Both the position numbers and the translations under genes were made by a program. Shown in pieces: positions 1,762 through 61,845 of a stretch of 64,000 nt of DNA (position 1 is the first letter of the stretch; each line of letters begins with the position of its first letter). A model generated the notes under the pieces. The model was not told where the DNA came from, ran no database searches, and saw only the letters and a list, made by a program, of their open reading frames with translations. Origin of the DNA: a virus; IMG/VR virus record IMGVR_UViG_3300045988_174698; one strand, 5' to 3'.

Positions 1762-4700
1762 TGGAATGTACATATGAAACTACAATAAACGGTAAGAAGA
1801 TAAAGTTCAGCTCCGAAATGGAGCTGGACAACTTCTTATCAAGTAAATTAGCAGATTATCAAATAAACGAATCAGATTTAACTTTTCAAATTAATCCTAT
1901 AGATAGTACTATAGAGAAGGTAAATGCTATTACAAGTAAAGTTAAAAATGCTTCTATAGAATCTGTAATTATAAATGATGATGGAGATTCAGAAACTATA
2001 CTTAAGATTCCTGACTCAATAGGTACTACTAGATTTATTACATCTAATGGGGATCCTTCTAATATGCAAAAGGAATTAGTTCCTCCTTTTAACTTAAATG
2101 ATTTCTTAAAAAAAGAAAGAGAAAGATTAAGTGCAGAAGGAATGACTAAATCTCAAATTGATTCATATTTAGAAAAGTTACAAAAGTCTTGAACTCAGTT
2201 AACTGATTATGGTACTGAAATACATTCCTTATTTGAAAGTATTATTAATAATACTACATTCAAACCAACTAATTTGAGTGAAGAACAGGTATTACGTTTA
2301 ACTGAAGAATTTAAATCCTTTATTGAAGATATTAAATCTAAATATGGTAAAAATGCTAAAATCTTAACAGAAGTTCCTATAATATCAGATAAAATTCATG
2401 AAGCATATCAATCAGAAGGAATTAAAAGTATTAATGGTAGAATTGATATGCTAGTTATTGACCAGAGAGGATTTGCTCATATTTATGATTTTAAAGTTTC
2501 TAGAAAAGAAGTAGGAATATGAGAGGATACTAGAAACATACAAGGATCAACTACATGGCACTCTACTAAAAAACGTTCTGTGGGGTATCAGTTAGGAATA
2601 TATAAGAATATTCTAGCACAATATGGCATTACTGTAGGAGAAACAAACGTTGTTCCTATTAAAATAGATCCAGAATATAATGAAGATGGAACTATTAATA
2701 AGCTAAATGATGCTTATATTGATTTTACTAAAATAAAAGTAAATCCTAATGCTCCATATACAGAAACTATAAATACTATTCTTCCAGTAAAAACATTACT
2801 TGATGATATTGATCTTATAAACTCAATTCAGGAACCAATGACTAAATTTGTTCCTAATTATGCAGTAGAAACTCAGGTACAGAGAAATACAGTTACTGTG
2901 GATAAATACATTAATAATCCTAGAATTGTACACTATATTGATGACACTGACCCAGAACGAAAGTTTGGAAAATACTGAATTTGGAATAAATATAAGAAGA
3001 ATCGTAAAGTATATGCTAAAACAGAGGAGGAACTCAGAGAAAAAGTACAAGAATTAGTAAATGAAGAAAATAAACATATTCACTCTGAAATGTCTACCTT
3101 AGCGGATACCATTCAACAAATTATTGAAGGATATGGATCCATTGATGACTTAGCTGCTGATAACCCATTTAAGTCTGATTATTGTAAAAAGATATTTAGA
3201 AAATATTTAGTAAAAAAGAGTGAAACTGACTATGGATGAACTTTTCAAAATAATCCTAAATTTATAGCTGCAGGTATATTTGTATTTACTAAGGATGGTA
3301 AAATGGAAATAATATCTGTTACTCATAATGATATTCATTCAGTTGTTAATTTAGGTCTTGGCAAATCTATTCAAGGAGCAACTAAAAAGGATAGTGATAT
3401 TGATAGTCATGTAATAATGCAAGCATCTAACGGTAATATTGACCTTGTTAAAGTTATGTGTTTATTAAATAATATGCCTGAGGTACTTAAAGGATACAAA
3501 GTTAATAAAATAGAATCACATAATATTTGAATTCAAAAAGGTACTGAGACCTATTTAGAAACTCTTTTAGATAATTTTTCTGAATTATGCAGGATACATG
3601 GTATTACCAATAATCTTACATCTCAAAATTTTGCAACAACATTAGAAGCAGCTGTAAATATAATAAGAGATACTGCTGGTGAAGAATTACTATCTCACAT
3701 GGGTAATTGAGAATTTAATTTTAGTCCTAATGATATTGTAAATGGAGTTCCATTCATCTTGCAGAAAATGGAACAACTAAGAAAATTAAAATCTGCAGAT
3801 GGCCTTCGTACTGCTTTAAGAGAAGGCAAATGAAATTTTGATGATCCTATTCAGCTAGCATATATGTTATTAGGCAGAGCACTAAATAAACTTAACGGAT
3901 ACTCTATTTATATTGAACAAGATCCTAAATTGTGAGTAAATTTTTCTAGGGAAGGATGATACACTGGTTCATATGTGAATAGTGCTAGTAACTCTTCTTC
4001 TAAAAATATTCAAACATTAAGTAAAATATTTTCAGTAGCAGAAGCTCATATTAGAAGGAAAGAATTATCATACAAACCTAGGATTAGTAAAGTAGTTAAG
4101 GCTTTATATGAATACAATCACAGAAATAGACTTATTGGAGGTGAGGTTAAGTTTTTTGATAACTTATTTGTTAAGGATACAAACGGTAATATAGATAAAT
4201 CATTTAGACTAAAAAATCCTTCAGATAGTAGTTTGGCTAAGGAAGAATCTGACTTTATTAAGATGTTTCTAGAGATAGTAAATGATTTTAGATTTGATGG
4301 TAATCAAAGTAAAATAGCTAAAGCCATTGAAGACGGTTCTTACTATGAAGTTCCTGTTTCTATGGGAAGTACATCTACTCAAATCCACAATAAAGGATAT
4401 AAACAAGCCTTTACATCTAAATATAATGAAGCTTTAAACTTTCTAAAACTTCTTCCTGAACAAGAGCAACAATTTAGGGAATCAAAAGGAGAGCCAAAGG
4501 TATATAATAAATATAGATTAAATGGACTTAGTAGATCTGATTTAATTGAAAATTATGGGATAGATGGTCTAGAAACTCAACTTGAAGATTTGCTATTAAA
4601 TGTCATCCATACATACACAATGGAAGAAGTAATGAATGAATATCTTCCCAGACTTCAAGGTATTAAGATTGCCTTACAATATCAAACTGGGATGTTTGGA

Positions 4701-8839: not shown

Positions 8840-11462
8840 TTAAATAAGTTTTGCAGCTAATTTTGGGTTAAGTAATAGTTTATTACATTTACCAGGATAG
8901 TGTTTGTTTAGTGTTCTTACTAGGCTAAAGAGTAGATCTTCAGTTAACAATAACTTATCATTATCAACTATCCTAAGAATACGATCTATAATTAGGTCCA
9001 TTTTACACCCAGGTTTACTAAGATATAATAAGCTATAATTTATAAATCTAGTGGTAATTACAGAAGCTATATCGGCACGATACTTACCTTTATCATATAA
9101 TTGATTCTCAAGTATCCTTTTAATATCGTTCCAATCCGTATTAACTAGTTCTTCTGGGGAAGGAAGTTTATCTAATTTATTAGCTATGAATGTAGTAAAT
9201 AATCCCCCAACAATATCATCACTATCAAGAAAACATCCAGAAGCTATTTGCAGAATAAAGGATAAATTCTCAGGTTTAGACCAATCATCAATACTAGAAA
9301 TAGTATTAATAAACATAGTATAATTGCGAGCATTAATTTTAGACTGCCTAGATTTTGAACGGTCCATTAATTCATCACTATAAAGAAGCATAAAGTTAAT
9401 CGCCTGATTATTATACCCTTTTTCCTCGGCATATTTAGCCCAATCATATTTATCAAACTTAATATTAAAGTTTAACATACGGGTTTTTATAGCCTCATCA
9501 ATTTCTGTTACATTAAAATCTCCCCCTTCAGGATTAGCTGTTAAAATAACAGTACTATTAGGAGGTAATTTCCAAGAGAAATATTCTTGTCTTGATATAA
9601 GCTCCATAATAGCAGCCAATACAATTGGAGAGCTACGATTCACATCGTCAAGATTCAAAATTGTAGGTTTACTTAGATCAATACTTTTTATCCATTCTGG
9701 AATTGCATAGCTCATTCTAGTTTCCTCAGATATTTCCCAACCTGCTTTACTATAACTTTCTATAAGTTCTGCAGTTATCCATCTACATTCATCATTTTTA
9801 CATACATAGTGCTCTTTAATTGGCCACCCGCAAATTTCTCCTGGGTCTGAAATTTGACTAAGGTTTTTCTTGATGTAATTAGCACCAATTTCACTAGCTA
9901 TTTGTTCGATTAAACTCGTTTTCAATTTTGTTATCTCTAGAGCTTTTTATCTCTAGATTCTATATCTTCATATTCGATATAGTTCAGCATATCTTTTCAC
10001 CTCTAAAAATAGTAAGGTGGAGCACACTCGTGGGAAAATTATATTCTGTACAACAGGTTCATTTCCTATGCGTTGCACTGTAGCAAATCATTTAAATCTG
10101 CTATTAGCTCAGGATTAGCATCTCAGCCTTCCCTGAATTTGCGCTCTAATAATTTTAAAGATTTCTCTTTAAAACGGCAATCTTTGATTTTATTAAATAT
10201 TTGATATTTTCTATCTAAATAAATTGTTGATTTATAATATAGGTGATATAAGTAGGCAGTTGCCTTTATTCCCGAAAAACTAAATGCAAAAGTAAAATCG
10301 CTATGATTATTAGAAAACAAATGTCTAGGCTCTAAGTAGCTTACCATTTTACTTAAAAATTCTTTTGCACCTAAACAGCTTATTTCTGGTTTATCATATA
10401 ATCCTAATGACCCATCACCATCAAAATATCCTCTAATAAAATGTCTTATTAAATCTTTAGACTTAAAGATATTTTCATTAGGAAATTTTAAAGTCAGTGA
10501 CTTTTTAGGAGTACATCCGTAAGAATTTAATGTTTCTCATAAGTGTTTATTTGTTAGAGCAAATCTACATCTAAAATATTGCTTATTGTTACATATAATA
10601 GATGATATTTTTACTCTATTACCTGTTACTTGAAAAAACTTCTGTAATTTATATAAATGTTCCACATCAGATCCTTTTAAAGAAACTTCAAAATTATAAT
10701 GAGGTTTTCCATTTTTAGGAATTGAAGCAATATATCCATCAGCAAAAATAAAACCCAATCAATAAGCTTTTTCTTCGGTATCTATAATATCAAAAATGTG
10801 TTCATTAAATTTTAGCATATTTTGAGTATTAATAACTGGTATTCCAAGTTTCTTTAATCTAATAGAAAAATTGCTTCGACTAAATTTATATTTATTACTT
10901 ATTTGTGTTAGGCTATAACCATTACTATACATCTGCACTGCCTCTTCAAAGTAAGTATCTAAATTACTCTTTCGTATATTAATGTTATTATTATGAAGAA
11001 TAGTGGAAATAGTATTTCTGGATACATTATATAGTTTAGCTATATCACTACAAGTTTTACCCAAATTATATAGTTTACAAATATTAATTTTTTCAGATAA
11101 TATTAATTTACTACACTCTCTACAAAGAGAATTTCTATTAGCTACACGACTAACTGTAGTAGGATGTACTTTACAAATTTTACTTATATCTTTAATCTTA
11201 TAACCTTGATTATATAAATCAATAATCTTATTTTCTAAATCATTACTAATTTTTTGCATAATATTTAAATTTTAAATAAATTAAATCTATGCAAAAGTAA
11301 TAATATAAAACAATTTAATCAAATATTTTATAATAAATTACCTATACCAGGAAGTGAAGTAAGTTGAACACTTATTGGAAATTCTCCTCTTTCTTGGAGA
11401 GATCTATTATTGTTTATAATATATTTTAAAATAGGTTTTATTTCTCCTAATGTTAGTTCCAT
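8840..11462 (-). CDS. MoxR-like AAA+ ATPase, split by a group I intron: exon 1 at 11462..11340, exon 2 at 9922..8840 (~401 aa spliced)
   Basis: Exon 1 ends ...SLPGIG and exon 2 starts KTSLIEQIASEIG..., which reconstitutes the Walker A motif GIGKTSL. The ILTANPEGG sensor region is MoxR-like. The unspliced read-through hits a stop after 3 codons. Confidence 0.7.
9923..11339 (-). mobile_element. Group I intron (family R, copy 1) with LAGLIDADG homing-endonuclease ORF, inserted in the Walker A codons of the MoxR ATPase
   Basis: The 5' exon ends in T (GGT|) and the intron ends in G (...ACAAAATTG|). The 3' core (10130..9935) carries an S-like element GAAGATATAGAATC and blocks shared with four other loci. 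Confidence 0.65.
10123..11259 (-). CDS. Intron-encoded homing endonuclease: N-terminal repeated HTH modules plus double LAGLIDADG (GFIFADGYI, GYFDGDGSL); 3 TGA codons
   Basis: ORFs 10759..11259, 10537..10758 and 10123..10347 are in frame and joined by TGA (the TCA at 10759-10761 and 10537-10539 on the plus strand). Confidence 0.7.
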
Positions 11463-16328: not shown

Positions 16329-18662
16329 TAAAATAATTTTAATTGTTTATGCTTAAACATACATACGATTTTTTGTGCTGCAGCTATATAAAAAGAATAA
16401 TTAATATTAGATGGTAATTCATCAGATTTATTAATAGTATTCAAAATTGTTACGCCAGAGTCAGTTAATAGTTTAATATAGTTATATCGTCTACCATTAG
16501 AATCTATTTTACATTTATATAGCCATGGACCATCAGTAGATATATAATATCGGTTAATACGTTGAATTAACTGACCATCATATTCTACAGAATAATCTTT
16601 ACTAACTTTTTGATAAGTTATAAACTTATTAATATCCTTACAAGCATAAATAGTATCTGCAACAGGAATTCCATCTGCTAAACATTTATTAATAGCTTCG
16701 GGAATAATAACTGCATCCATACCTTTGCCAAGTTTTACCTTGTCGATAAACATACCTTTTGTCTTTAAAAGACTTGGATCTTTTGTTTCAGAATAACCTT
16801 CCTTAATTGCAAGATAGTCATTAATAGCAAACTGATACATTGCTTCAAATCTATCCTCTTCAAGAGTAAGTTTAGTTAAGATTTCCCAATTCTTGCAAAT
16901 TTCTTGTACATTGGTATATTTGTTTCGTTTTAATAGTACAAATAATCCATCAGTATTAGCTTGAATTATTCTACAACCTGCTTGAACTAATTTCTCCGCT
17001 AACATTAATAACATCAATTGTCCATTAATTCTAATTTGCATAACAGCATATGGAGAATAACAAAAATTATGTTCATTTTGTAGATTACCAGACAAACCGT
17101 TTAAAGCAAGTTTTAGAGTTTCATTCTTAACTTTATTTCCATTATGTTTAGCTTCTAATCGTTCATCTCGAATTTGAGAGTAAACTTCAAGGAATTCTTT
17201 ACCAAGATGTTTTGGATAAAATCCATATTGTATAATAATGCTAGGATATAGTGCATATCCATTTTAATTTTCGACTATATCTTAATTTTTATATCTAATT
17301 TGTTCTGAATTTAATTCAATGTAGTGTCATTTAAAGCCTTTATATGAAGCTTTTGTACCTTGACAACAACAATAAATGGATATAACCAAATTAAATTTAT
17401 AAAAATTCGCGGCGTTTCGAATAAAACCTTATAAAGTTTTATCCTACTCTCTTTCGAGATAGTCTGTGAACCTTGATCCTATAAGGATCCTTGGCTGCGG
17501 ATTATAATACTTATTAAGTTTTTACTTTCTCATAAGCGTTATCTTATGTGCTACACTATGTATTACTACTAGCTGCAGTATTAATAAGTTAAATTAAGTT
17601 CCCGCAATTAACCGCGTTTTACTTGCGCCACTATATTAACGCAACATCTATATCAATAAGCATTTCATCTTTTGTAGGTATAATTTCCTCAGGTTTATTA
17701 ACACTATGAATACCTCCAACTCCAACAGTATATTCTAATTCATCAAATATAAAATGTTTCTCATATCCTTTACGTCCAGGAGAAACTGTTTGCTTTTTCA
17801 TATCAGCTAATACACTTTTAAGTATAGGTGATTCAAACTCAATAAAAGGTAAAATAACCTCATTTAATGGAATTAAATCGCAAGGTGACCTCAAATCTTT
17901 AATTTGATTTCAGGTTTGTCCTGTTTTTTCAAGATACTTTTGAGTAATAATTTTCATTCCAATATTAACTCCATCTTTATTAAGTACCTTTACTCCATAC
18001 TCATCTTCAATAGCTATACGTAAATCAATATCCTTTTTACATCTATTTAATAATTCCTCAGTAGAATCAACATCATTAATATTATATTCTATCATTTTAG
18101 GAATTTCAGATACAGGAAGATAATCTTGGAAATCGCCTTCATATTCTTGAACATTTCGAAACTGCATAGTTACTTGCATCTCCTTTAACCCTACTCTCAA
18201 CTTTTGAGAATAAAGCATAGTTAACAAGTCTAATGTTTCAAAATAAATTTTATATTTCCACTTTGTTCAAGAACTAAAATTAGTATCAGTAGATTGAATT
18301 ATTAAATTACTAAGTTTAAATAAAGATGCGCATATCTCTGAATACGACATCTTTAACATTACTTTATGAAAATCAATAATATAATTAATAATAGGATTAT
18401 CATAATGAATATTATTGTATCCACAAAATATTTTATCTGTTTTAAACTGTAAGTTTGTAGTATAGTTTCTTTCTCAAATACCAATTTGAGATTGATTTCT
18501 AACAGTTCAAAATAAATCTACTAACTCTTGTAAATTATTCTTACGTTCAGATATTTCAAAAAATAAGCGTTCTCCTGTTTCTGTATTTTTTACAACACAG
18601 TGAAACACATTAGGAAATATTTCAATATCATAAACGTATACAGTTTTATTTCTAATTAACAT
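16328..18662 (-). CDS. Family B DNA polymerase (with 3'-5' exonuclease), split by a group I intron; exon 1 ~18662..17643, exon 2 ~17261..16328
   Basis: Exo I is VYVYDIEIF and Exo II is GYNNIHYDNPII. Motif A is split: the 5' exon ends ...DIDVA(L) and the 3' exon resumes (GYA)LYPSIII. Motif B-like KLALNGLSGN and motif C-like IIQANTDGLFV follow. The exons are in different frames and separated by a structured non-coding RNA. Confidence 0.65.
17262..17642 (-). mobile_element. ORF-less group I intron (Tetrahymena-like core) in DNA polymerase motif A; boundaries are approximate
   Basis: The minus-strand RNA contains AATTGCGGGAA (P), AATCCGCAGCCAAGGATCC (Q), GGTTCACAGACTATC (R) and TTAAGATATAGTCG (S), in that order. 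Confidence 0.7.
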
Positions 18663-19390
18663 TATACCTCATCATATGTAATTCTAAATATTTCAGGTTT
18701 GCAAGGATAAAATTCATTCCTAACTCCTCTGATAATATAATCTCCAACTGAAGCTTTCATTATACCTTCAAGAGTTGGAATTCCAAGCGAATAATCATTT
18801 TCTTCTTGTGTATTGTTATAACGCAAAAGTTGATTTCCGACAAACTCTTCAACTTCTTCAACATTATTTCCAATATACTGAATAGCCTCTATTTCTACAG
18901 GTTTTTTTCTATATTTCTTTATCATTTATAACGGTATATATTTTATTAAAATCATCTTCATTAATCCAAAATCTGTATCCGTTCCAGTTGCAATAAAAAC
19001 CATTTACTCTTTTATTCTCAGTATGCTGAACTTGCATTTTTAATATTTGATGATTATAATCAAATTTTGTCATTGGCTGAACTTCAACTTCGAGGTTTTT
19101 AACTTTTGCTTTCATTAAAACAAACTGCTAATCATCACACTTAAATATAACAAGTTATCTTGTAAAGCTATATTATTAAGCTCACATAGATTGTTATATA
19201 TCTTTATATAAAGTTTACAAATATTTAACATTTTCCTATTAATTTTAACCAATCTTCCTCTACAAAGTAAGACATTCAACCATATTGATCTAATCAACTC
19301 TCTTCATTAATAAGACAGGCATGTTCATTAAAGTCAGGATGTTCCATTAACTCCTGAGTATACGGTCATTCTACAATTACATATTTCACA

Positions 19391-24438: not shown

Positions 24439-24474
24439 ACTTATATCTTAAATAAAATATTAGTTACAACGACT

Positions 24475-27000
24475 TCAGCCGCAGGACATACAGCTTACAC
24501 ATCCTGAAGTAGCAACCAATGGTTCCCCACATTCTGGACATACGTTTTTATTATCATGATTGGCATTTATTGAAGGTTTTGTATCTGGAACACTAATCTG
24601 CTCTTTTTGAGGAATTTTTACATTATCTTTTATAGCTTCTGTAATTACTCTTGATATAATATCTGGGCATGACAAACCATCAATATTAATTTTTCTAGCC
24701 TTACATGTACTACAAGCAGGACAATTAATTCCTCTTATCTGATCAATTATCTCATCGACTTTAACACCACTTCTAAGATTAAGAGAAATTAATCTTGTTA
24801 CAGCATTCATGTTAGCTTGACAGATACCACCTTTAGATGTATGTGTGAACACTTCTACAAGATTACCCTTATTATCCTTATTGCAAGTTATATATAATGT
24901 TCCACATGCACATTTTTTACAAAAAGTTGCACCATGTGTTGTACCAAGTGTTTTGCGTGAAACTGGTGCAATGGAATCAAATTTGAAAGATTGTTTTTCT
25001 TCTTCAACTTTAATAGATTCCCCCATAATAGCTGGTCTACTATTTTCCCTAAATATCGTTAACCCTTTTAAACCAGCTTTCCATCCAGCTAAATATAATT
25101 TTTCTACATATTCTTGTGATGTATCTTTCTTAAGATTAATTGTAGAACTTATTGCTGTATCAATATACTTTTGTAATGCTGCTTGAAGCTTTATACGATC
25201 ATATGAATCAATATCATATGCTGTTACAAGAATATCATCATCTATAGAAGAATTAGGAACAGAATCAAGATATTCTTTTACAATTTTAGCATAAACATCA
25301 TATACCTTTTCTTCTTTATTAAGAGATACTGTTTTTCTCTGAAATTTCTTCATAAACAGGGGTTCCAAACCGCCCGATACTCCAAGCATAGTTGAAATTG
25401 ACCCAGTTGGTGCTATCGAAAGTAGTGAACAGTTTCTAAGACCAAATTTTTTCATTTTTTCAAGTTCATCGCTTGAAAAGGCTTCTTTCATTATACTAGA
25501 TTCAAATACCTTGTCTGAATAGCCAGGAAATGTTCCAAGTTCTTTAGCAAGATCATATGAGGTAAATACAGAATTTCTGAAAATAAGTCTCATAATATTT
25601 TCTGCAAGTTTTATCGACTCTAGGCTTCCATATTTAATATTCAATTTTATAAACATATCATGAAGTCCCATAATTCCTATGCCAAGGTTTCGGTATTTAG
25701 CAATTTGTTCTTGTTGTTCCTTAAGAGGGTGGTTATGAAGATTTTCATCTATAATCCTATCCATTTCCCTAACAATAATCTTTATATCTGAAACTAGTTC
25801 AGAATAATTAACTGTTGCAAATTTTGTAAAAGGATCTTTTACATATTCAGATAGATTTATTGAGGATAAGTTACAGGACATATTTTTTGGCAAAGGTTGT
25901 TCCTATATATTACCTATTTAGCTTTTTATCTAGATATTCTGGAAGTTTCCTTCATACTCTTTATTGCCATTAGAGATACGTCTGTCAATTCAGACCAGTT
26001 TAGCATATATTTTCACTATAAAGTGTTGGGCACTCTTGGTGGAATTATATTTATTCATCCACTATGCGTTACAATGTTTCATAGCCTATTCGTAATCTAT
26101 GAAATTATCTCGGTATTATCATGCAATAATTTGTTTAGACTTCACCGATTTTACCCAATTTTTTACATGAGGCAAACAATACAACTAACTGATAACCAGC
26201 CATTTACTACCACATGGATTACTAGTATCTATTTGATACTCAGTAATATACTCCATCAAATTATAATTTCTGAATCTATTCATAAACATGACTCCAGGCT
26301 CTGCATGTTCATATGCATTTTTCATCATAAGTTTATAAATTTCAATTGGAGTTATATCATAATCAGGATATCCCTTAAACTTAGATTTAATATGAAGGGT
26401 TATAACTTCTCCTGTCTCATAAAACTTATCTACGGCATTCATAAAGTTATCATCAACTTCCACAGAAAGGTTTGCATTATTGATCTTTCCAAGATTGCTT
26501 TTAATAGTTATGAAATCTTTTATTTGTGGATGATCTGCTGAAAGAGACATCATTAATGCGCCTTTACGTGATCCACCCTGAGAAACAGAAGCAGTTACAG
26601 TATTAAATATCTCCATAAATGGAACAATACCATCTGTTTCATATCCTGAAGAAAGTTTTGATCCTTTTGGACGAATATCAGATAAAGATAATCCTTGACC
26701 TCCCTGAGCTTTGAACGTTAATCCTATATTTTTTGCCGTTTGAAGAATATCATCAAGATTATCTGCAATTTTACCAGACGAGTAGCAATTTGAGTACGAA
26801 GCCTGTCTGTCTGTTTGTCTGTTTGATAGAGTTCTTCCTCCAAATAAGAACTTTTTAGCAACAATTAACTTTCTTAGTTCTTCATTTCCACCACTAACTC
26901 TATCAAACCACTCGTCTAAAGACTCATTATTATATCTATACTTTTTATTTCAAATATCAATTCCTAATTGATCATTATTAAGCCATTCTTCAACAGTCAT
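24475..27000 (-). CDS. Ribonucleotide reductase catalytic subunit (class II-like, C-terminal Cys-rich zinc ribbon), split by a group I intron: exon 1 at 27000..26199, exon 2 at 25912..24475
   Basis: The N-terminus reads ...VPFMEIFNTVTASVSQGGSRKGA. Exon 1 ends ...SNPCG and exon 2 starts EQPLPKNMSCNLSSINL, reconstituting NPCGE...CNLxSINL. PTGSISTMLGVSGGLEP and the C-terminal CPECG...C..C are also RNR features. Confidence 0.7.
25913..26198 (-). mobile_element. ORF-less group I intron (family R, copy 4) at the NPCG|E active-site codons of RNR
   Basis: The 5' exon ends TGT GGT| (T at -1) and the intron ends ...ATATAG| (G). It contains the family blocks ...AGCATATATTTTCAC..., CACTATGCGTTACAATG and CTCGGTATTATCATGC. 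Confidence 0.65.
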
Positions 27001-32312: not shown

Positions 32313-32395
32313 ATTTAAAAACTAAATTTATTTTTATTTCTGATATCTTTTACTTCTGTATCTTTTACAGTTGCATCTTTTATTTCTTTTTCTCT

Positions 32396-34860
32396 TCATG
32401 AAAGATAATCTTCATAATTTATTTCATCAGATTTAGGTAAAGGATAGAACATACCAATACTACCTTTGAAAGCAGACATGATAATTCTATTAGAAATACC
32501 ATATCTATTTTTAAGAATAATAATAGATCTACAAATATCTTGTAAACCATATCCTTCGTTATCATCCATTATTTTATATCCTCTATAACTTTTTAGTTGG
32601 GTTTTAAATGGACTAAATAATGCAATACAAATATCAGCAGCTTGTAATGGTTCACCTGACTGTTGAATTTCATCCGCAGTAGGCTCTTCCATACCAGCTT
32701 TTCTCCTATCCATAGTTGTACTATTTCTATTTTCTTGCATTATAATATCAAAACTAGTCTGACATAGTTCTCTAAATCTGACACAATAAGTTGATATAAG
32801 ATCCATTTCTTCTTTTTTAGTTCTCCCTTTTTGAGGATTTACTAAAAGTAAATGATCAATAACAACATTAACTATTTGATTAGGATTATTTGGGGTATAT
32901 ATAGTTCTTTTTCCATCAGGACTTTTTTGAAAGGTTCCTAAACTTTTGTGGAGTTCCATCATTTCTGCATAAAAAGAATCTGCAGAGAGCTGTTTATCAT
33001 ATATAATAAACTTATGACTTATAGATTCTAATCACTCACGAGCTTCAATTACATACTTATGTATATCATCTGGTAACTTATTAGTAAATGACATTAATTG
33101 CATATATGTAACTTCAATACCATAAGTTTCATATAAATATAAGCTTAATAATTTCGCCAACAATGTATTAGCACTTAGTTCAAGAGAAAAATAAACTATA
33201 ATTATATCTTTATCTGGATAATCTTTTAAAATACGATATATATCTGTATATATAACAAAAGAGCTTTTCAATTTGTTATCTTACTTGCTTTTTATCAAGT
33301 AATTCTTATAGTTTCCTATAAGTTCAGCATATATTTTCATCTCTTTGAGATGTCGGATACTCTTGGGAAAATTATATTCTGTATAACAGGTTCATTTCCT
33401 ATGCGTTACAATATAAAATAACTGTTAAATTACTTTATTATCTCGGGGTTAACATGCTTATATACAAAATTTGGATAATTATTCTGTACATATAGTTTAG
33501 CCTTCTCCGATATTACCCGATCATTATCTCTAAAATCACTTTTAGAGACGGCAAAATTATGATTTTTAAAACACAAATATCTATAATATTTCCTATTTAA
33601 ATAAATTGTAGAATTTTCATAAATTCACTGTAAAAATTTAATACTATTATTTATATTACTTTTTATATCAAATATTAGATCACTTGTTTTATTTGCAACA
33701 TATCATGTTCATGAAGTATTTGAATATACTTCTATATTTTGTAAAATATTTTTAGTTCCAACAATACAACATCTTGGTTTAAAAATATTTTTACTACCTC
33801 CATAAGATAAACATCCATCACCATCAAAATATCCTCTAATAAAATGTCTTATTAAATCTTTAGATTTAAAAATATTTTCATCAGGAAATTTTAAGACATA
33901 ACTTTTATTTGGAACACATCCTTTTTCTATTAGAGCATCTTTAATATGTTTACAAGAAATAGCAAATCTACATCGTTGCAATTTATTATCAGTTCTTGGT
34001 AATCTGAAAATATTTAAGGCACTATATAATTTTTCTAGATGTTCAATATCATCAATATGTAAATCACATGAGATATGGTAAGAATTTGTAGAAACATTAC
34101 CATCAGCATATAAAAATCCCAATCAATATGCTTTTGTTTCTGTGTCTATTACATCAAAAAATGATTCATTTACTGTTTTACGATTTAGGTTGAAATTATG
34201 TTTTTTTTAGAAACTTTGAAATAACACAACCTTGAGTATTATATAATTTACCTATTTCTTTCAGAGACATACCGTTATTAAAACAATCAATCATATTTTT
34301 TAAATCATTTAATTTAAACGTATATGATATCCTATTACTTTTATGTGATAAATAAATTCCGCATCGTTTAAATAAATTACCTAATGCAGCAGATGTACAA
34401 TTGCACAATTTAGAAACAGATTTAAGTGATATTTCAGGATTTTCATGAAATTTACATAAGGCTTCTTTAACTTTTACATCATTTACTTTATGTTTTCTAA
34501 CATTCTTAAAATAAAAATCTAAAAGAATTAAATCTACAGCTTGTTTTGAAATATTTAATTTGTTGGATATTTCAAATGAATTTAAATTTTGTTTTCTTAG
34601 TTCTATTATTTTGTTTATCATAGTAAAAATTATTTTAATTTTTACTACAAAAATAACGCAATTTATTTATATTTACAAATATCTGCGTTGGAAATTATTA
34701 ATGTTTTACCAACACTACTTTTGCTGAATATTAACTTATATACACCCTTTTTAAATCCTCCAGTATAAAAATCCAATTTTAAAAGTCCTGTTTTAAGACC
34801 TATATTTTTACCTTCTCGCCCGTCTTCTATTTTAGAATATAATTCACCTACCAAACTCAT
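32396..34860 (-). CDS. DnaB-family replicative helicase (RecA-like domain), split by a group I intron: exon 1 ~34860..34690, exon 2 at 33267..32396
   Basis: Exon 1 reads GLKTGLLKLDFYTGGFKKG...SKSSVGKTLII (Walker A). Exon 2 reads ...IIIVYFSLELSANTLLAKL... and ...GEPLQAADICIALF (DnaB IEQDADVVLFL). Confidence 0.65.
33268..34690 (-). mobile_element. Group I intron (family R, copy 2) with LAGLIDADG homing-endonuclease ORF, in the DnaB helicase; the 3' end is exact and the 5' end is approximate
   Basis: The intron ends ...ACAAATTG| and the 3' exon begins AAAAGCTC. The core blocks GTTCAGCATATATTTTCATC and CATTTCCTATGCGTTACA are shared with copy 1. Confidence 0.6.
33435..34621 (-). CDS. Intron-encoded homing endonuclease, paralog of 10123..11259 (HTH repeats plus LAGLIDADG x2: GFLYADGNV, GYFDGDGCL)
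   Basis: ORFs 34196..34621 and 33709..34122 extend through TGA to 33435. An ~80-nt stretch is nearly identical to 10400-10480. Confidence 0.65.
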
Positions 34861-39101: not shown

Positions 39102-40753
39102 TTAGTCTATGTCCCCCTTATAGGCATTCATAATAGATTTTTCCTTTCTAAGCCAAGAGCCCTCAGTTTCTGCTATATCTAGAACAGTACGGCTAATAGA
39201 TTCTTCTTCTCAATTTTGTTATCGTATAGCTTTTTATCTATACTTCTTATACTTCATTTTGTATAAGCTCAGCATATATTTTCACCTTCAGCATTATCTG
39301 TTAAGGGTAAATCACTCGTGGGTTTATTTTATTCTAATCTGTTATTAATATTTTATAATTGTATATAGCGTTGTATACCTGTTTTGGAAGTATATTTTTA
39401 TATTTGTTAGCATATTCCTTTAAACAAGTTTCTTTCTCTTTCTTATATGCTCTAAATGCTTCTTCAATTGTAGAAAAAGTTCCTATATGTTTTTTCTTAT
39501 TCATATAATTAATTTGAGCAATTATTTTATTGTTTTTGATTCTGACTCCTATTGGAGTATTACCTCTACATTGAAATCTTCAAGTAATAGCAGTATTAAT
39601 TTCCTTTGGGATAAAACAACAATAATTTGGAGAATAAATTTTATTCCCCTTTACCAAGAAATCTTTATCTATAACAAATGATTCGTTATAACAATTATTA
39701 TAATATCAATCCGCAAAATTCTGAAAATTTAATCATTCTTTACAAACAGTAACTCCATTTCCTCCATAGTTATTATATTCAGAAACTTTTGGACAATAAC
39801 ATCTTCCAATCATTTCTTTCCAAATTTTATAACATCGAGTTTGTTTACCGTTTTTGTCCCTAGAACTATATTGACCTACTCCAAAATAACCTGTATTGTA
39901 TACAGACGGATAATAAGGATCTTTAACAGAGCCCTTTTTTAGATTACCTAGTTCAGCAGTAATAATAGTACCTGTTTGTAAAAATTTTATTATTACATTA
40001 TATGAATCAATATATTCTAGAATGATAAAATCTCCAGAACTATTTGAAGTCATAATTTTATTTTCATAAATTTGTTTGTTATTTGTCATATATCATAATA
40101 TTTTAATTAAACATAGTACAAATATACAAATTCTTTTTCAGACTCACAAACAAATTAGGTTCAAAACCTATGCGTTACACTGACTTAATATATTACTATT
40201 AAGTTTAGCACGGTATTAGCATCTCAGCCTTCACCGTTTTTGATTTATTCTATTCTACTTATTTCTAAGCAGACAGGCAGAATTCTACCTGCTCGTTCAC
40301 TAACATTCCTGTCTCTTTATCATGCCCGTTCAACCAGTTGAAAGTAGCCCAATCACCCTCATTAGCTGCCTGATCAACAATTTCATTAATCATTTGAGTA
40401 GTTTCAATTTCAAGATCTACGGTAATCTTAAAAGGATCTACCATATCTTCTACTTTCTTATCAAACTGCTCAATAGTAGGATAAATATACTCTGCATCGT
40501 TTTCATTTAAATATTTACGAATCCAGGAATGATGTAAGTATTCTTCATCTGCTCTTTGTTTGTAATACTCTTCAAGAATAACAAATCCTCTAACACCAAA
40601 GTAATTTGCAAAATTCATATACGCATTATGATTTTGCAATTCATGCTTAAGCTGACGAAGAAGTAGTTTTTGAATTTCAGCACTTAAAGTGCATTCACGC
40701 CTACTAACATCCTTTTTTTCTACAGGATCATTTGCCTCATTTTTAATTATCAT
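39102..40753 (-). CDS. Ferritin-like protein, split by a group I intron: exon 1 at 40753..40287, exon 2 at 39210..39102
   Basis: Exon 1 aligns to bacterial ferritin FtnA (E..EExH..., DWATFNWL vs DYPTFNFL) and ends ...VNEQ(V). Exon 2 EEESISRTVLDIAETEG... continues the FtnA C-terminus (EQHEEEKLFKSIIDKL). Confidence 0.65.
39211..40286 (-). mobile_element. Group I intron (family R, copy 3) carrying an AP2-domain endonuclease ORF between the 5' and 3' core halves
   Basis: The 5' exon ends CAGGT| and the intron ends ...ACAAAATTG|. The 5' half (40250..40130) has ...AGCATCTCAGCC... and ...CCTATGCGTTACACTG... blocks; the 3' half (39330..39250) has ...CACTCGTGGG...AGCATATATTTTCACC. Confidence 0.65.
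39342..40089 (-). CDS. Intron-encoded putative homing endonuclease with W..M..RC...YGG.G motif and C-terminal AP2 DNA-binding domain
   Basis: YKIWKEMIGRCYCPKVSEYNNYGGNGVTVCKEW, then GVRIKNNKIIAQINYMNKKKHIGTFSTIEEAFRAYKKE (AP2-like). Confidence 0.5.
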
Positions 40754-40790
40754 AAATTAGGTAATTTAAAGTATAAAACATTTCTGCTAT

Positions 40791-55006: not shown

Positions 55007-55642
55007 GGTAAAATTTTCTGAGTTATTCTTTTATAGTTATTTAATATTCCTAAGATGTTTGCTCGACCTACAGGATTTGCAGATTGACTTGCAAACTGTG
55101 GAAGGACATATCCTTCATCTATACATTTATCTACAATATACTTGGCTATATCGTATCCAGATTTTTCCTCTCCTAAATCATGATCGAGACAAATTGCATA
55201 AGGTCATTCTTTTTCAAGGAAGTCAATAGCTTCTTGATAAGACTGAGCCCATACAACTTTACAATTTCTGCCAATTGGACTAAAATTCATCCAATCATCT
55301 TCCATTGGATTACGAGCATCATCTATCCAAAAAAGTGTTTTCATAATCATCTAATTCTTAAATGAGAAAGTAAATTAAAAACTATTAATATAATACAAGC
55401 CATAGTTGGAATAAAGTTTAAAGGAGTCCAAATGAGTATTATAAAGACAAAGCTACTAATATATTTATCCTCAGTATAGTATAAATACATATCTCCTAGA
55501 GTAGTTCCTTCTTTAGATTTTATCCTCCAATAAACGTAGAGAATAATATGATTAATAATTATACATACAAACCAGCAATATACAAATTCCATAATTATAT
55601 TTTATTTAAATGAAATTTTCACTACCTAATTATTTATAAAAG

Positions 55643-55714
55643 TATCCCCACCTTGATTCGAACAAGGACCTTTCGGGTAGAAGCCGAAGATTCTCTCCAT
55701 TGAACTATGGGGAC
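55643..55714 (-). tRNA. tRNA-Arg (anticodon UCU)
   Basis: Cloverleaf: the acceptor is GTCCCCA/TGGGGAT, the anticodon arm is TTCGG-CTTCTAC-CCGAA, and the T-arm is CCTTG-TTCGAAT-CAAGG. Confidence 0.7.
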
Positions 55715-57926
55715 TAAATAAATAGTTTATCTTACTATTTATATAAATATTATTATTAAAGTTTTTGAATATTCTTCATAAAAACTCTAGTAATAATATC
55801 TATATTCATCTTACATTGCTCAAATATATCTATTTTATAAGAATCTTTCAGTGGGCTATCCTCTTTGTATGGCCAATGTGCAATTATAAATTCATATTCA
55901 CATCTAGCCCAGTATTGATACATTAATTTTCTCGTTACAAAATCCTTACACTGCTCAAAATTTTCTTTAGAAGGTTTATCTGCTTTATAAGCATCATTAT
56001 ACTTTCTAACTAGGTAAGGCATTATATCATAATAGGTTGGTTTATTTTTATTATATTCTAACCATAATACTTTGAATGGTATCATAAATTTTACTATTAC
56101 AATTTTTCACCTAAATAATTAACTTCTATAACATTTAAATAGTTAACTTTAAATGGATAATCATCAACTATAGTATTATACTGTATACAAACACTTCTTT
56201 TATCTGTATCATGAAAGCAAGATACAACATGATTGAAATTGATATTACAGTTATATCCTTCACCTATAATATTAATAATATTTATCTTTTTCATATTGTA
56301 TTTATGTAAAAGCTCTTAGTAATAAAATCTTAACTTAAAATTCTAAGTGGTTTTTATACTTGGCAGCACATCGAAGAAACCTATATGGATCCTTTATAAA
56401 AATGCGTTTTATATTAGGATTTAAATGGCTAAGATCTGGGTAAAAACAAAAAAAGCCAAACTTACCTGTATCATCTAAAACAACAACAGAGCTCTGGATT
56501 TTATTACCTTTCATGTATATCTGAACGTCGAAATATGGCCTATACCCAAGTTTAACTAGACTGCTGTAAAATAAAAGGAATTGTTTAGATAATATTATAG
56601 TATATGGATATTCTTTCATTATAGTAGTGAATTAATTATTAAGATAGCTTTTTTACTGTCATAACGACCCTTGTAATCAGATTTAGGTATAATATTCAAT
56701 ACCTTATTGACAATATTCTCACCACTAGTAGCATATAATGCTCCACTTGGATGATAAAAATCATGTCGTAAATCTACAACAATTAATGTACGCTTCATAT
56801 AGTTAAATTAAGCATAATAAAATTTGAATAAAGTGTAGACTTTGATCAATATAATATGAAGTAAAATCCTTCATATACTTTTTATAAAGTCCTCTACACT
56901 TCCAGTAATCAATAGCATAATGTCCAACTAGTAACATTATTAATTTCCAAATTGCAGCTAATCCCAAAAAGTGTAATGCAATATAAATACCTAACGCCCA
57001 AATTGCACAATGTACAAACAAGACATAATTATTTTCACATTTATACTTCTTACAAAACTCATCTTGCAACGGATAGTCTAAAACTAAATTTAGAAAGTAA
57101 AGTATAATAAAATTTATCATTATCTAATCTTTATTTTTGAGAACAAACTTCCAATATCTAAGAAGATTTGTATTATCAATACAATAGTATTTACTACAGG
57201 AACCCATATTAAAAGGAAGATCCAATCATTATCTTGATCTACATAAAAAGAATAAAGATCACCTATTGTGCTTCCACACTTGTCTTCTTCAATCCAATCA
57301 AAATACAGGGAAACGTGTAAATAAACAACTCCTATTAGATAAATACCTAAAATAATTAAAAATGTATACATATTAATCCAGTTTTTCCCAGCATTCTTGA
57401 TCAAAATTCCAATGTCTAATATCACAAATATTAAACTCGAAACATAATCCAAGAATGCCGATATTAAAACAAAAGCCTGCATGATCCCCTTTATTATTAT
57501 AACTAATATGGAAATCAAGCAAGCCAAATGTATTGATGTTTATAAACAAATAATAACAAATACCAAATAGTTGAATATCAAAGTCAAAAAATTTTGATAA
57601 CTTAAAGATTTTAAATCTAATAGACATTTCTAATGATTTAAACTCTCCTATAGGGTGCACAAACACCCACCACAAAAAATCTAATTTACAAAGCTTCATA
57701 TTTTTCTTAAATTAGAGTAATAAGCGGTTATAGACTATACTTCTAATTTGGGTTAATAACTAATATTATTGTAATACTTTATATCTTCAATATAAGTTTT
57801 CTGTGTATCTCCAGTAGGCCCTATCATAATATTAGGTTTTATTGTTCCGCATGATATATTAAGTATTACTAAGACTATTATAACTATTTTTACTATTGTT
57901 TTCATCTTTATGTTATTAATGTTTAG

Positions 57927-57999
57927 AGTAGGTAACAGGATTCGAACCTGTGATATAGCTTTTGCAGAGCTGGGCCTTAACCAACTTGGCGATACCTAC
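57927..57999 (-). tRNA. tRNA-Cys (anticodon GCA)
   Basis: The acceptor is GTAGGTA/TACCTAC, the T-arm is CAGG-TTCGAAT-CCTG, and the anticodon loop is CTGCAAA. Confidence 0.65.
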
Positions 58000-58004
58000 A
58001 TGTG

Positions 58005-58095
58005 CGGTAAGGGTGGGATTCCAACCCACGCAGCGATTTCTATACGCTCTAATGCATTTCAAGTGCATCCTCTTAAAGCTCTTGAGTACCTTACC
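58005..58095 (-). tRNA. tRNA-Ser (anticodon UGA), class II with long variable arm
   Basis: The acceptor is GGTAAGG/CCTTACC+G, the anticodon arm is ATGCA-CTTGAAA-TGCAT, the T-arm is GTGGG-TTGGAAT-CCCAC, and the variable arm is 22 nt. Confidence 0.65.
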
Positions 58096-58133
58096 AAATT
58101 TATCTATCTATAAACTTTCTAGTAAGTTATTTG

Positions 58134-58206
58134 CTGGACCGATAGGATTCGAACCCACGTTACCCAAATTAACAGTTTGGTGCTTAAACCACTCAGCCAC
58201 AGTCCA
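58134..58206 (-). tRNA. tRNA-Asn (anticodon GUU)
   Basis: The anticodon arm is CCAAA-CTGTTAA-TTTGG, the T-loop is TTCGAAT, and the acceptor is TGGACTG/CGGTCCA (one G-U pair). Confidence 0.6.
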
Positions 58207-58358
58207 GTACATTTTATATATTTATTACAGATAACTCTGCAAAAGTATTTGCAGAAATATTATAAATTAATTAGTCGAGAATGATAGTAATGCTCTATCC
58301 CCTAGAAATCCCAAATTTCTCGTGCTACTTCCACACCCCATTCTCGATAAACTATCCT

Positions 58359-58592
58359 TTATTCAAGGATAGCGTTTAATTTTGCAAGAACACCTTCGTT
58401 TTTCTTACGAATGTTTTCAAGAGCTTCTTTTTCAGCTTGAGCTGCTTTGATTTCCTCGTCTCTTGCTGCAATTTCTAATTCTGCAGAAGCATTTACTTCT
58501 TTAAGACCATCAATTGCAGTTTTGAAAGCATTTAAAACATTGTCTACTTTCTTAGACAGATCTACAGATGTTTTACTTTTTGAATTAAACAT
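58359..58592 (-). CDS. Small coiled-coil protein
   Basis: ORF track only; the sequence is charged and helical. Confidence 0.3.
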   Translation of the reverse strand: MFNSKSKTSVDLSKKVDNVLNAFKTAIDGLKEVNASAELEIAARDEEIKAAQAEKEALENIRKKNEGVLAKLNAILE

Positions 58593-58639
58593 GTTTAATA
58601 GTTTTTTAAATTAATGCTGTGAGGAGATTTTTGGGACCC

Positions 58640-58711
58640 CCAATAATAGTGAACCATATGAGACTCGAACCCCTCTATTTCCTTGCAAAGGAAATGTGCT
58701 CGCCTTTACAC
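58640..58711 (-). tRNA. tRNA-Ala (anticodon UGC); T-stem and acceptor contain G-U pairs or mismatches
   Basis: The anticodon arm is TTTCC-TTTGCAA-GGAAA, the T-loop is TTCGAGT, and the acceptor is GGGCCAT/ATGGTTC. Confidence 0.5.
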
Positions 58712-61824: not shown

Positions 61825-61845
61825 AAGTTAAAAAGATTTTTGTGT

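What the first reader, a model, noticed from the sequence alone, without database searches (positions are those of the whole stretch)
25913..26198. Group I intron splitting the ribonucleotide reductase at its NPCG|E active-site codons
- ORF 26185..26616 ends ...SNPCG and then stops after SKWLVIS in the unspliced reading.
- ORF 24475..25893, read 6 codons upstream, begins EQPLPKNMSCNLSSINL.
- Joining TGT GGT| to GAA CAA restores the catalytic NPCGE motif followed by the CNLxSINL stretch.
- The 286-nt intervening sequence has T at exon -1 and a 3'-terminal G, and shares blocks with the other R-family introns (...AGCAUAUAUUUUCAC..., CACUAUGCGUUACAAUG).
- Active-site intron insertions in phage nrd genes are known in T-even phages. 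This one is a new family member in a TGA-recoded genome.
Basis: partly seen in the sequence, partly recalled or inferred. Interest (0 to 1): 0.55.

Follow-up and report, generated by a model that had tools for sequence, protein, structure and literature searches.

The report
Group I intron in phage RNR
A 306-base self-splicing-type (group I) intron with no gene of its own interrupts the active-site codons of a gut phage's ribonucleotide reductase gene; it is real, but it is an ordinary new member of a well-known kind of phage element.

Summary
The intervening sequence is 25903..26208 on the minus strand, 306 nt rather than 286. It lies between ...AAT CCA TGT GGT and GAA CAA.... Joining the exons gives a 744-aa class II-type RNR that aligns without a break through NPCGE...CNLSS with Thermotoga NrdJ and with uninterrupted phage homologues.

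The sequence folds into the full group I topology. It has P1 with a U·G pair at the 5' splice site, P10, the P3/P7 pseudoknot, P4-P6, P7.1, P8, a P9 domain and a terminal G. Its core family occurs in at least 113 viral contigs. In 47 aligned members, 94.8% of proposed pairs form, against 35-48% in slid controls. P1, P10 and P9 show compensatory changes among homologous introns at the same RNR site.

A covariance model built from the family matches all three introns annotated as group 1 in phage Twort orf142. Rfam's RF00028 reaches only 23 bits against a cut-off of 50.

Related phages carry other elements at the same codons: a homologous intron with a GIY-YIG gene, a different LAGLIDADG intron 5 nt upstream, or an intein. 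The host is a crAss-like phage that reads TGA as Trp, a group already reported to be intron-rich.

Verdict: supported, new member of a known kind, low-to-moderate interest. Splicing itself is inferred, not shown.

The parts
26209..27000 (-). RNR exon 1 (ATG at 27000; ends ...AAT CCA TGT GGT = N P C G; in-frame TGA = Trp at codon 17)
   Evidence: Aligns from residue 1 with uninterrupted homologues L009-L014.
25903..26208 (-). Group I intron, 306 nt, no ORF of its own (intron position n = 26209 - n in window coordinates)
24460..25902 (-). RNR exon 2 (starts GAA CAA CCT TTG = E Q P L; ends ...CGWSRCN plus TAA; includes the TSCPD and Cys-rich C-terminal part)
26209..26216 (-). P1 5' strand: last 8 exon bases CAUGUGGU, with U(-1) at 26209
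   Evidence: Pairs with the internal guide GCCUCAUG in 7 of 8 positions, with U(-1)·G. Compensatory changes at -2, -4 and -7 in 9 homologous introns.
26186..26202 (-). Hairpin inside an unusually large P1 loop of 35 nt. It carries the in-frame stop TAG (26185..26187) that ends translation from exon 1.
   Evidence: P1 loops of homologues are 9-26 nt.
26166..26179 (-). Internal guide sequence UUGUUU|GCCUCAUG: the P10 guide (26174..26179) abuts the P1 3' strand (26166..26173)
   Evidence: P10 pairs 6 of 6 with 3' exon GAACAA (25897..25902). Position +4 covaries (C with G in three introns, G with C in two, G with U in one).
26152..26158 (-). P3 5' strand UUGGGUA
   Evidence: Pairs with 26026..26032. 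98.5% paired in 47 sequences, and 6 of 7 pairs have double changes.
26110..26148 (-). P4 (UCGGU/ACCGA), A-rich J4/5 and J5/4, and P5 (GUC/GAU) with a 17-nt L5
26074..26108 (-). P6 and P6a hairpin (UUUCAUAG/CUAUGAAA)
   Evidence: All 10 pairs covary in the family.
26063..26073 (-). J6/7 (UGUA) and P7 5' strand A-C(bulge)-GCAUA. G at intron position 142 paired with C206 is the presumed guanosine-binding pair.
   Evidence: Invariant in the pattern-selected family. Compensatory P7 changes relative to the Twort, L002 and L003 introns, read by eye from the alignment.
26039..26062 (-). P7.1 hairpin (GUGGA/UCCAC), the extra helix between P7 and P3' that subgroup IA introns have
   Evidence: 99.6% paired, and 4 of 5 pairs have double changes.
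26026..26032 (-). P3 3' strand UGCCCAA (closes the P3/P7 pseudoknot)
26002..26025 (-). P8 hairpin (CACU/AGUG), J8/7 AAAAUA, and P7 3' strand UAUGCU
25939..25998 (-). P9 domain: P9 (CUGG/CCAG) closing three hairpins, the last capped by a GAAA tetraloop
   Evidence: 99.2% paired and 13 of 21 pairs with double changes in 6 same-site homologues. P9 is swapped to CCAG/CUGG in L069.
25915..25936 (-). P9.1 hairpin (UAUCUAG/CUAAAUA, one C×A mismatch) with the conserved loop AUAAAAAG
25903..25903 (-). Terminal guanosine (omega-G) at the 3' splice site
   Evidence: G precedes GAA in all 7 homologous introns whose 3' end was found.

Best explanation
Window 25903..26208 (minus strand) is a 306-nt group I intron of subgroup IA type, without a homing endonuclease gene. 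It is inserted between the Gly and Glu codons of the NPCGE active-site motif of a class II-type ribonucleotide reductase gene in a crAss-like phage that reads TGA as Trp.

**Shown by sequence and comparison.** The RNA has a contiguous internal guide, UUGUUU|GCCUCAUG. This guide pairs with the last eight exon-1 bases (P1, with a U·G wobble at the splice site) and with the first six exon-2 bases (P10). It also has a covariation-supported catalytic core: the P3/P7 pseudoknot, P4-P6, P7.1, P8 and a P9 domain. It ends in G.

**Inferred mechanism, by analogy with characterised group I introns.**
1. Free guanosine docks at the G-C pair of P7, next to the bulged C, and attacks the bond after U(-1).
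2. The terminal G then takes its place in the binding site.
3. The freed exon-1 3'-OH, held by P1 and P10, attacks after the terminal G. The exons join and TGT GGT GAA (C-G-E) is restored.

Ribosomes that follow the polymerase stop at the TAG eight codons into the intron, inside the P1 loop and before the core, so folding is not disturbed.

**Likely origin.** The copy in this window is probably an endonuclease-less descendant of a mobile intron, because homologues at the same site carry GIY-YIG genes in the P8 loop.
For: 1. **Exon continuity.** The spliced ORF is a single Ribonuc_red_lgC domain (4e-99). It aligns through the junction with 1xje and with uninterrupted homologues L009-L014.
2. 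**Core structure.** In 47 family members, 94.8% of cells pair against 35-48% when the 3' partners are slid by 1-3 columns. 29 of 40 pairs have double changes, and 0 of 500 shuffles reach any measure. RNAalifold independently recovers P3, P4, P5, P6, P6a, P7.1 and P8.
3. **Splice sites.** Nine homologous introns after the NPC[G/A] codon all keep U(-1)·G, with compensatory changes at -2, -4 and -7. P10 position +4 covaries. All seven introns whose 3' end was found end in G.
4. **3' domain.** 99.2% paired, with 13 of 21 pairs showing double changes.
5. **Homology to known ribozymes.** Model R1, built from the family, matches all three introns of Twort orf142 over its full length, with E from 1e-7 to 6e-4. 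The record annotates these as group 1 introns and Rfam confirms them at 64-101 bits. P7 differs from the Twort intron by compensatory changes (read from the alignment).
6. **Rfam.** RF00028 is the only family with E<1 when the intron is searched alone: 23.3 bits, E=5e-4, model positions 1-253.
7. **Not an assembly artefact.** The same intron, with one substitution, is in an independent metagenome contig (L007).
8. **Early stop codon.** A stop within the first 27 nt is a reported habit of bacterial and phage group I introns (PMC2504315).
Against: - RF00028 stays far below its gathering score (23.3 vs 50 bits). It gave no hit at all in the whole-window scans or the 1.5-kb scan.
- The minimum-free-energy fold is no better than shuffles (z = -0.48).
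- P1 has a U×U mismatch at -4 and an unusually large 35-nt loop.
- P5 is only 3 bp and includes a G·U pair, and P9.1 has a C×A mismatch.
- P7 is invariant in the pattern-selected alignment. Its support comes only from a few more distant homologues read by eye.
- No transcript or splicing data exist for this phage.
Confidence: 0.9

Rival explanations
1. A group I intron that no longer splices on its own. It would need a protein helper, for example a maturase-like LAGLIDADG protein from one of the sibling introns in the same genome, or a host RNA chaperone.
For: The intron has weak spots: a U×U mismatch in P1, a 35-nt P1 loop, a 3-bp P5 and a C×A mismatch in P9.1. It is AT-rich at 32% GC. The window encodes at least two LAGLIDADG proteins inside sibling introns.
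Against: All core helices and joining segments are intact, and they are nearly identical to those of many family members. Nothing in the sequence requires a cofactor.
Confidence: 0.15
2. A dead intron remnant. The RNR would then be either a pseudogene or expressed as two polypeptides that assemble, as in the genes-in-pieces NrdA of Aeromonas phage Aeh1.
For: Split phage RNR genes that work without splicing are documented (PMC3045599 and PMC3653736). There is a TTG codon at 25893, near the start of exon 2.
Against: The cut would separate the catalytic Cys from the Glu of NPCGE. Every ribozyme element is conserved, including the P1 and P10 guides matched to these particular exons. Both exons are free of frameshifts, and the near-identical copy in L007 differs by a single base.
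Confidence: 0.06
3. Some other kind of interruption: a group II intron, an intein, or a translational bypass.
For: None was found. An intein does occupy the neighbouring NP|C position in a distant homologue, L016.
Against: The in-frame TAG after 7 codons rules out an intein. At 306 nt, with AGUAAA...AUAG ends and no match to any group II family in Rfam, it is not a group II intron. The gap is six times longer than the T4 gene 60 bypass (own knowledge), and the ribozyme covariation is not explained by bypassing.
Confidence: 0.01

Closest known systems
Staphylococcus phage Twort group I introns (three in orf142, one of them crystallised; two more in nrdE)
   Same: Same helix order: P3-P4-P5-P6-P7-P7.1-P3'-P8-P7'. 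Same bulged C before the G-C pair in P7 (AACGACUA/UAGUCU in Twort, AACGCAUA/UAUGCU here). The J8/7 segment ends in AUA in both. The family model R1 aligns to all three orf142 introns over its full length. Twort nrdE also carries group I introns near conserved catalytic residues (PMC3653736).
   Different: Sequence similarity is weak (22-36 bits, against 143 bits for the query itself). Rfam scores the Twort introns at 64-101 bits but this one at 23 bits. This intron has no P2, a single P7.1 hairpin, a branched P9 and a 35-nt P1 loop. The host gene is a class II-type RNR rather than class Ib.
Group I introns of crAss-like phages (Yutin et al. 2021, PMC7886860)
   Same: Same phage group, since the polymerase DNA is about 74% identical to cr125_1, cr114_1 and related phages. 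Same combination of TGA=Trp recoding and many introns and inteins in core genes. The intron core is 72-81% identical to unannotated stretches in cr131_1, cr7_1, cr128_1 and cr6_1.
   Different: That study found introns through their endonuclease domains. This copy has no ORF and would be missed that way. The RNR active-site position was not singled out in the passages read.
Introns in other RNR genes: T4 nrdB and nrdD, Bacillus SPbeta and B. cereus-group nrdE and nrdF
   Same: Group IA introns inserted in frame in conserved RNR codons, with early in-frame stops. Copies with and without an endonuclease gene occur at the same site (PMC2504315 and PMC3653736).
   Different: Different RNR classes and subunits, different insertion points, and no detectable close sequence relationship was tested here.
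RNR (RIR1-type) inteins at the thiyl-radical cysteine
   Same: They target the same few codons. The position just N-terminal to the catalytic Cys is the commonest intein site in class I and II RNRs (PMC2677866). Homologue L016 has such an intein at NP|C.
   Different: An intein is a protein-level element translated in frame. The element here is removed at the RNA level and sits two codons downstream.

Membership tests
Group I intron | Conserved core helices P3-P8 in the canonical order, with the P3/P7 pseudoknot | tested here: met
   All helices are placed in the 306 nt. In 47 family members 94.8% of cells pair, against 35-48% in slid controls. P3 is 98.5% paired, and 6 of its 7 pairs have double changes. 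RNAalifold agrees.
Group I intron | P1 formed by the 5' exon end and an internal guide sequence, with a U·G wobble at the 5' splice site | tested here: met
   CAUGUGGU pairs with GCCUCAUG in 7 of 8 positions, including U(-1)·G. Nine same-site homologues keep this pairing, with compensatory changes at -2, -4 and -7.
Group I intron | P10 pairing of the 3' exon with the guide, and a terminal G (omega-G) | tested here: met
   UUGUUU pairs with GAACAA in 6 of 6 positions. Position +4 covaries. G is the last base in all 7 homologues whose 3' end was found.
Group I intron | Guanosine-binding G-C pair in P7, next to a bulged nucleotide | tested here: inconclusive
   The arrangement A-C(bulge)-G142...C206-U is present and matches the Twort intron. 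P7 shows compensatory changes in the Twort, L002 and L003 introns, but these were read by eye from the alignment. P7 is invariant in the main alignment because the search pattern fixed it. Binding of G cannot be tested here.
Group I intron | Reaches the curated score of Rfam RF00028 (Intron_gpI) | tested here: not met
   23.3 bits against a gathering score of 50, E=5e-4, when the intron is searched alone. No hit in the whole-window scans or the 1.5-kb scan. Sibling introns in GenBank phages are also missed. The model does detect the Twort introns at 64-101 bits.
Group I intron | Detectable homology to recognised group I introns | tested here: met
   Model R1, built from the family, hits the three introns of Twort orf142 at 35.5, 27.1 and 22.5 bits, with E from 1.4e-7 to 5.8e-4 (rough calibration). 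The record annotates these as group 1 introns and Rfam scores them at 64-101 bits.
Group I intron | Guanosine-initiated self-splicing that yields ligated exons | not testable with these tools
   Needs in-vitro GTP labelling or RT-PCR.
Subgroup IA (IA2-like) | Extra helices P7.1/P7.2 between P7 and P3' | tested here: met
   A P7.1 hairpin is present and covaries. Longer family members have a nested second hairpin. Assignment to IA2 rather than IA1 or IA3 was not tested. It rests on the resemblance to the Twort intron, whose IA2 classification I take from my own knowledge.
Class II-type ribonucleotide reductase (host gene) | Single continuous RNR barrel domain with the NPCGE catalytic motif after joining the exons | tested here: met
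   PF02867 at 4e-99 in one stretch covering residues 78-547, plus TSCPD. The best solved relative is the B12-dependent T. maritima RNR 1xje, 1e-63, which aligns across the junction. B12 dependence itself was not tested.
Group II intron | About 600 nt or more in six domains, GUGYG...AY ends, and the domain V catalytic hairpin | tested here: not met
   306 nt with AGUAAA...AUAG ends. No Rfam group II family matched at E<=10.
Intein | In-frame insertion with no stop codons, flanked by Cys/Ser/Thr...HN|Cys/Ser/Thr | tested here: not met
   TAG after 7 codons, and several stops in all frames. A true intein is seen at NP|C in L016 for comparison.

The most novel reading that the evidence does not exclude
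This intron may represent a large, coherent lineage of phage group IA introns. The lineage occurs in at least 113 viral contigs and in unannotated gaps of Staphylococcus, Clostridium and crAss-like phage genes. Rfam's curated model misses it in ordinary scans, and it has multiplied to at least four copies in one 64-kb stretch of a crAss-like genome.

The NPCGE codons of phage class II RNR would then be a three-way contested homing site. Nearly identical host genes (97-99% identical RNR protein) carry either this intron or a different LAGLIDADG intron 5 nt upstream, never both in the contigs seen. More distant genes carry an intein. That would give a natural system for studying exclusion between selfish elements at overlapping targets.
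Probability: 0.3. Interest if true: 0.4.

Novelty: new member of a known kind. Interest (0 to 1): 0.27.

Why it matters
The practical value is in annotation. Without recognising the intron and the TGA recoding, this phage's RNR is called as two or three fragments. The same happens to terminase and other core genes in deposited Staphylococcus, Clostridium and crAss-like phage records that carry siblings of this intron. Rfam's group I model does not flag these siblings at its threshold, so a dedicated covariance model such as R1 would recover many split phage genes.

Biologically, it adds one more case of selfish elements piling onto the most conserved codons of RNR. Here two different introns and an intein sit within about seven bases of each other, and copies with and without an endonuclease gene occur at the same site. 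That pattern fits the known gain-and-loss cycle of homing elements. None of this would surprise a specialist.

Tried and rejected
- **Rfam scans that found no group I match.** The whole window at gathering threshold, the whole window at E<=5, the 1.5-kb region, and three GenBank sibling loci. Only a search of the intron alone gave a sub-threshold RF00028 match.
- **Single-sequence folding.** The fold was not better than shuffles and did not give the group I fold. That is expected for an AT-rich pseudoknotted RNA, so I abandoned it for comparative analysis.
- **First hand-drawn P1 helices.** Short pairings close to the splice site (GCUG with UGGU, or CCAU with AUGG) were rejected. The guide at intron positions 30-43 pairs with both exons and covaries in homologues.
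- **First hand-drawn P5 and P8.** Positions 79-94 for P5 and 173-189 for P8 were replaced by the pairings that covary in the family.
- **Alternative splice register.** TGTGG|...A|GGAACAA also restores C-G-E, but it gives an intron ending in A with G at -1. No homologue supports it.
- **Other element types.** Group II intron, intein and translational bypass were rejected on the sequence.
- **Failed or corrected tool calls.** The paper on the Twort nrdE introns (PMC113830) is not held. Pfam scans of neighbouring ORFs given as window references failed because the tool translates TGA as stop, so I repeated them with code-4 translations.
Full report
**What is in the sequence**

The gene lies on the minus strand. 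The upstream frame ends ...GAT ACT AGT AAT CCA TGT GGT (D T S N P C G), with its last base at 26209. It then runs on as AGT AAA TGG CTG GTT ATC AGT TAG. Immediately after a TAG, the downstream frame starts GAA CAA CCT TTG CCA AAA AAT ATG TCC TGT AAC TTA... (E Q P L P K N M S C N L S S I N L) at 25902.

The intervening sequence is therefore 26208..25903, which is 306 nt at 32% GC.

The N-terminal third of the gene (27000..26617) is hidden from a standard-code ORF list because codon 17 is TGA. That codon aligns with an invariant Trp in nine homologues (GIDIWNKKY). The window has 59 in-frame TGA codons in 39 long minus-strand ORFs, so TGA = Trp is real.

**The two exons are one gene**

The joined product is 744 aa under code 4. 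It matches Pfam Ribonuc_red_lgC in one stretch (residues 78-547, E=4e-99) and also has a TSCPD domain. Its best solved relative is the B12-dependent RNR of Thermotoga maritima (1xje, 1e-63). That alignment passes straight through 'tsnpcgeqplpknmscnlss' / 'STNPCGEIGLSDYEACNLGS'. Six phage homologues of about 38% identity (L009-L014) match residues 1-744 with no interruption.

**What the intervening sequence is**

Single-sequence methods were unhelpful. Rfam found nothing in the window at curated or relaxed thresholds, and the minimum-energy fold is no better than shuffles. Similarity searches were informative.

- The central 180 nt resemble unannotated gaps that split terminase genes in Staphylococcus and Clostridium phages, and stretches of several crAss-like phages.

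By hand, the 306 nt can be laid out as a complete group I intron:

- **Guide:** UUGUUU|GCCUCAUG (intron 30-43). Its 3' half pairs with exon bases -8..-1 (P1, with U(-1)·G). Its 5' half pairs with exon-2 bases +1..+6 (P10).
- **Junctions and P3:** an A-rich J1/3, then P3 (51-57 with 177-183), then J3/4 AAA.
- **P4-P6:** P4 (61-65 with 95-99), with A-rich J4/5 and J5/4 around a short P5, then P6 and P6a (101-135).
- **P7:** J6/7, then the P7 5' strand A-C(bulge)-GCAUA (140-146), pairing with 202-207.
- **P7.1 and P8:** P7.1 (147-170), then P8 (184-195), then J8/7 AAAAUA.
- **3' domain:** a branched P9 domain (211-270) ending in a GAAA-capped hairpin, then P9.1 (273-294).
- **Tail:** GGUAAUAUAUAG, ending in G306.

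**Tests of that structure**

- **Core, 47 sequences.** On a MAFFT alignment of 47 distinct core sequences (A1), the proposed pairs form in 94.8% of cells. With the 3' partners slid by one to three columns, only 35-48% form. Of 40 pairs, 29 show changes on both sides, and no shuffle out of 500 reaches any of the five measures.
- **P3.** The long-range P3 helix defines the pseudoknot. It is 98.5% paired, and six of its seven pairs covary through three to five pair types.
- **Independent prediction.** RNAalifold, run without my structure, returns the same P3, P4, P5, P6, P6a, P7.1 and P8.
- **P7.** This helix cannot vary in A1 because the search pattern fixed it. In the model-guided alignment A2, the Twort intron (GACUA/UAGUC), L003 (GCGUA/UACGC) and L002 (closing G-C instead of A-U) differ from GCAUA/UAUGC by changes on both strands. 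I read these by eye, so this support is thinner.

**Splice sites**

Nine family members sit at exactly the same place in diverse RNR genes, after the NPC[G/A] codon. All keep U(-1)·G.

- Exon position -2 is G or C, and the guide has C or G opposite it.
- Position -7 is A or U, with U or A opposite.
- Position -4 is U or C, with U or G opposite.
- In P10, exon position +4 is C or G. The guide has G opposite every C and C (U in one intron) opposite G.
- Every 3' end that could be located (7 of 7) is a G directly before GAA.

The 3' domains of six of these introns pair in 99.2% of cells, with 13 of 21 pairs changed on both sides. In L069, P9 changes from CUGG/CCAG to CCAG/CUGG.

**Link to established ribozymes**

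A covariance model of the core (R1) scores the RNR intron at 143 bits. It also matches, over its full length, all three introns of Twort orf142, at 35.5, 27.1 and 22.5 bits with E from 1.4e-7 to 5.8e-4 under rough calibration. The GenBank record states that orf142 'contains group 1 introns', and Rfam RF00028 scores them at 64-101 bits.

RF00028 does give a full-length match to the RNR intron when it is searched alone (23.3 bits, E=5e-4, the only family below E=1). That is well under the gathering score of 50. Membership by Rfam's own criterion is therefore not met. Membership by structure, covariation and homology is.

**Mobile-element context**

- An independent contig (L007) carries the same intron with one substitution.
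- Homologous introns at the same site carry a GIY-YIG-type gene in the P8 loop (read from the sequences of L015 and L020). L042 and L069 are 989 and 1105 nt long, so they also carry inserts, which I did not examine. The window's copy, L126 and L040 have no ORF at 306-316 nt.
- Four contigs whose RNR proteins are 97-99% identical to the window's (L004, L005, L006, L008) lack this intron. They carry instead a different 847-nt intron with a LAGLIDADG-type ORF, inserted 5 nt upstream (CCGT|...G|GTGGT), and a second intron with an HNH-type ORF at SIAPTG|S. R1 still detects the first of these weakly (24.5 bits).
- A 35%-identical RNR (L016) has an in-frame intein at NP|C. That is the position described as the commonest intein site in class I and II RNRs (PMC2677866).
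- L017 is interrupted elsewhere, at residues 145/148.

**Host and prior knowledge**

The window's polymerase DNA is about 74% identical to crAss-like phages cr125_1, cr114_1, cr4_1 and cr115_1. Yutin et al. [quoted passage not shown] They found these introns through their endonuclease domains.

RNR is reported as the phage nucleotide-metabolism gene most often interrupted by group I introns (PMC3653736). In-frame stops within the first 27 nt are a noted feature of bacterial and phage group I introns (PMC2504315). Here the stop is at intron nt 22-24.

**Mechanism and confidence**

I am about 90% confident that this is a group I intron whose removal restores NPCGE. The chemistry is inferred from the family, not shown here: guanosine attack at U(-1), exchange of guanosine for the terminal G in P7, and exon ligation on the P1/P10 guide.

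The intron has weak points: a U×U mismatch in P1, a 35-nt P1 loop, a 3-bp P5 and one mismatch in P9.1. These leave room for dependence on a protein helper (about 15%, as a variant of the main view) and, less likely, for a dead remnant with a split or inactive RNR (about 6%). Intein, group II intron and translational bypass are excluded by the sequence.

**Verdict**

This is a new member of a known kind. Its main uses are for annotating recoded, intron-rich gut phages, and as an example of several selfish elements competing for the same active-site codons.

Noticed in passing
window 33281..34690 (-), core 33322..33525: A sibling intron (R1 122 bits) splits a DnaB-like helicase between the Walker-A region (...SSVGKTLIISN) and the DnaB_C part (ORF 32318..33280). 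It carries a LAGLIDADG ORF (33433..34206) and an upstream ORF of about 156 aa (34199..34666, not scanned), placed before P3. The end of the LAGLIDADG ORF overlaps P3-P5.
   Followed up: partly
window 9982..10151 (-), with ORF 10069..11271 (-): Another sibling intron core (R1 140 bits), directly downstream of and overlapping a 401-aa ORF with HTH and LAGLIDADG domains. The flanking ORF 8843..9946 has a faint AAA_5 ATPase match (E=0.008, below Pfam's cut-off) and may be its second exon. The first exon was not identified.
   Followed up: partly
window 40081..40252 (-) and 39267..39336 (-): Two partial R1 matches (69 and 29 bits) look like the 5' and 3' halves of one intron. The P3 strands UAAAUCA and UGAUUUA are complementary. 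They are separated by a 277-aa ORF (39337..40167) with no Pfam match. A ferritin-like ORF (40268..40756) lies just upstream.
   Followed up: partly
window 16331..18683 (-): The crAss-like DNA polymerase is in two ORFs (17634..18683 and 16331..17263), separated by about 370 nt that R1 does not match. This may be an intron of another family.
   Followed up: no
window 61842..62263 (-): Rfam calls a tmRNA at 52.3 bits against a gathering score of 47. ARAGORN, which also searches for tmRNA, did not report one. A phage-borne tmRNA would be unusual.
   Followed up: no
window 55642..60957 (-): A cluster of seven tRNA genes: Arg-tct, Cys-gca, Ser-tga, Asn-gtt, Ala-tgc, Thr-tgt and Gln-ttg. None has anticodon TCA, so the TGA suppressor that the recoding implies is not in this window.
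   Followed up: no
L004/L005/L006/L008 (e.g. L004 654..1500 and 2005..3229): Near-identical RNR genes carry two other introns in place of the window's. One has a LAGLIDADG-type ORF and sits 5 nt upstream of the window's site. The other has an HNH-type ORF and sits at the conserved SIAPTG|S motif. Its 3' part contains GATATAGTCT, like the Twort P7' strand.
   Followed up: partly
L016 2292..3256; L017 1950..2866: More distant RNR homologues are interrupted by an in-frame intein at NP|C (CFSGD...VVHN|C) in L016, and by an unexamined insertion of about 915 nt at residues 145/148 in L017.
   Followed up: partly
L001 (NC_055902.1), L002 (MH356730.1), L003 (MW478292.1): Deposited phage genomes contain siblings of this intron (R1 85-134 bits) with no intron annotation. 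The terminase large subunit is listed as two CDS in Staphylococcus phage SA2 and Clostridium phage vB_CpeS-1181, and as a CDS that ends at the intron in crAss phage cr131_1.
   Followed up: partly
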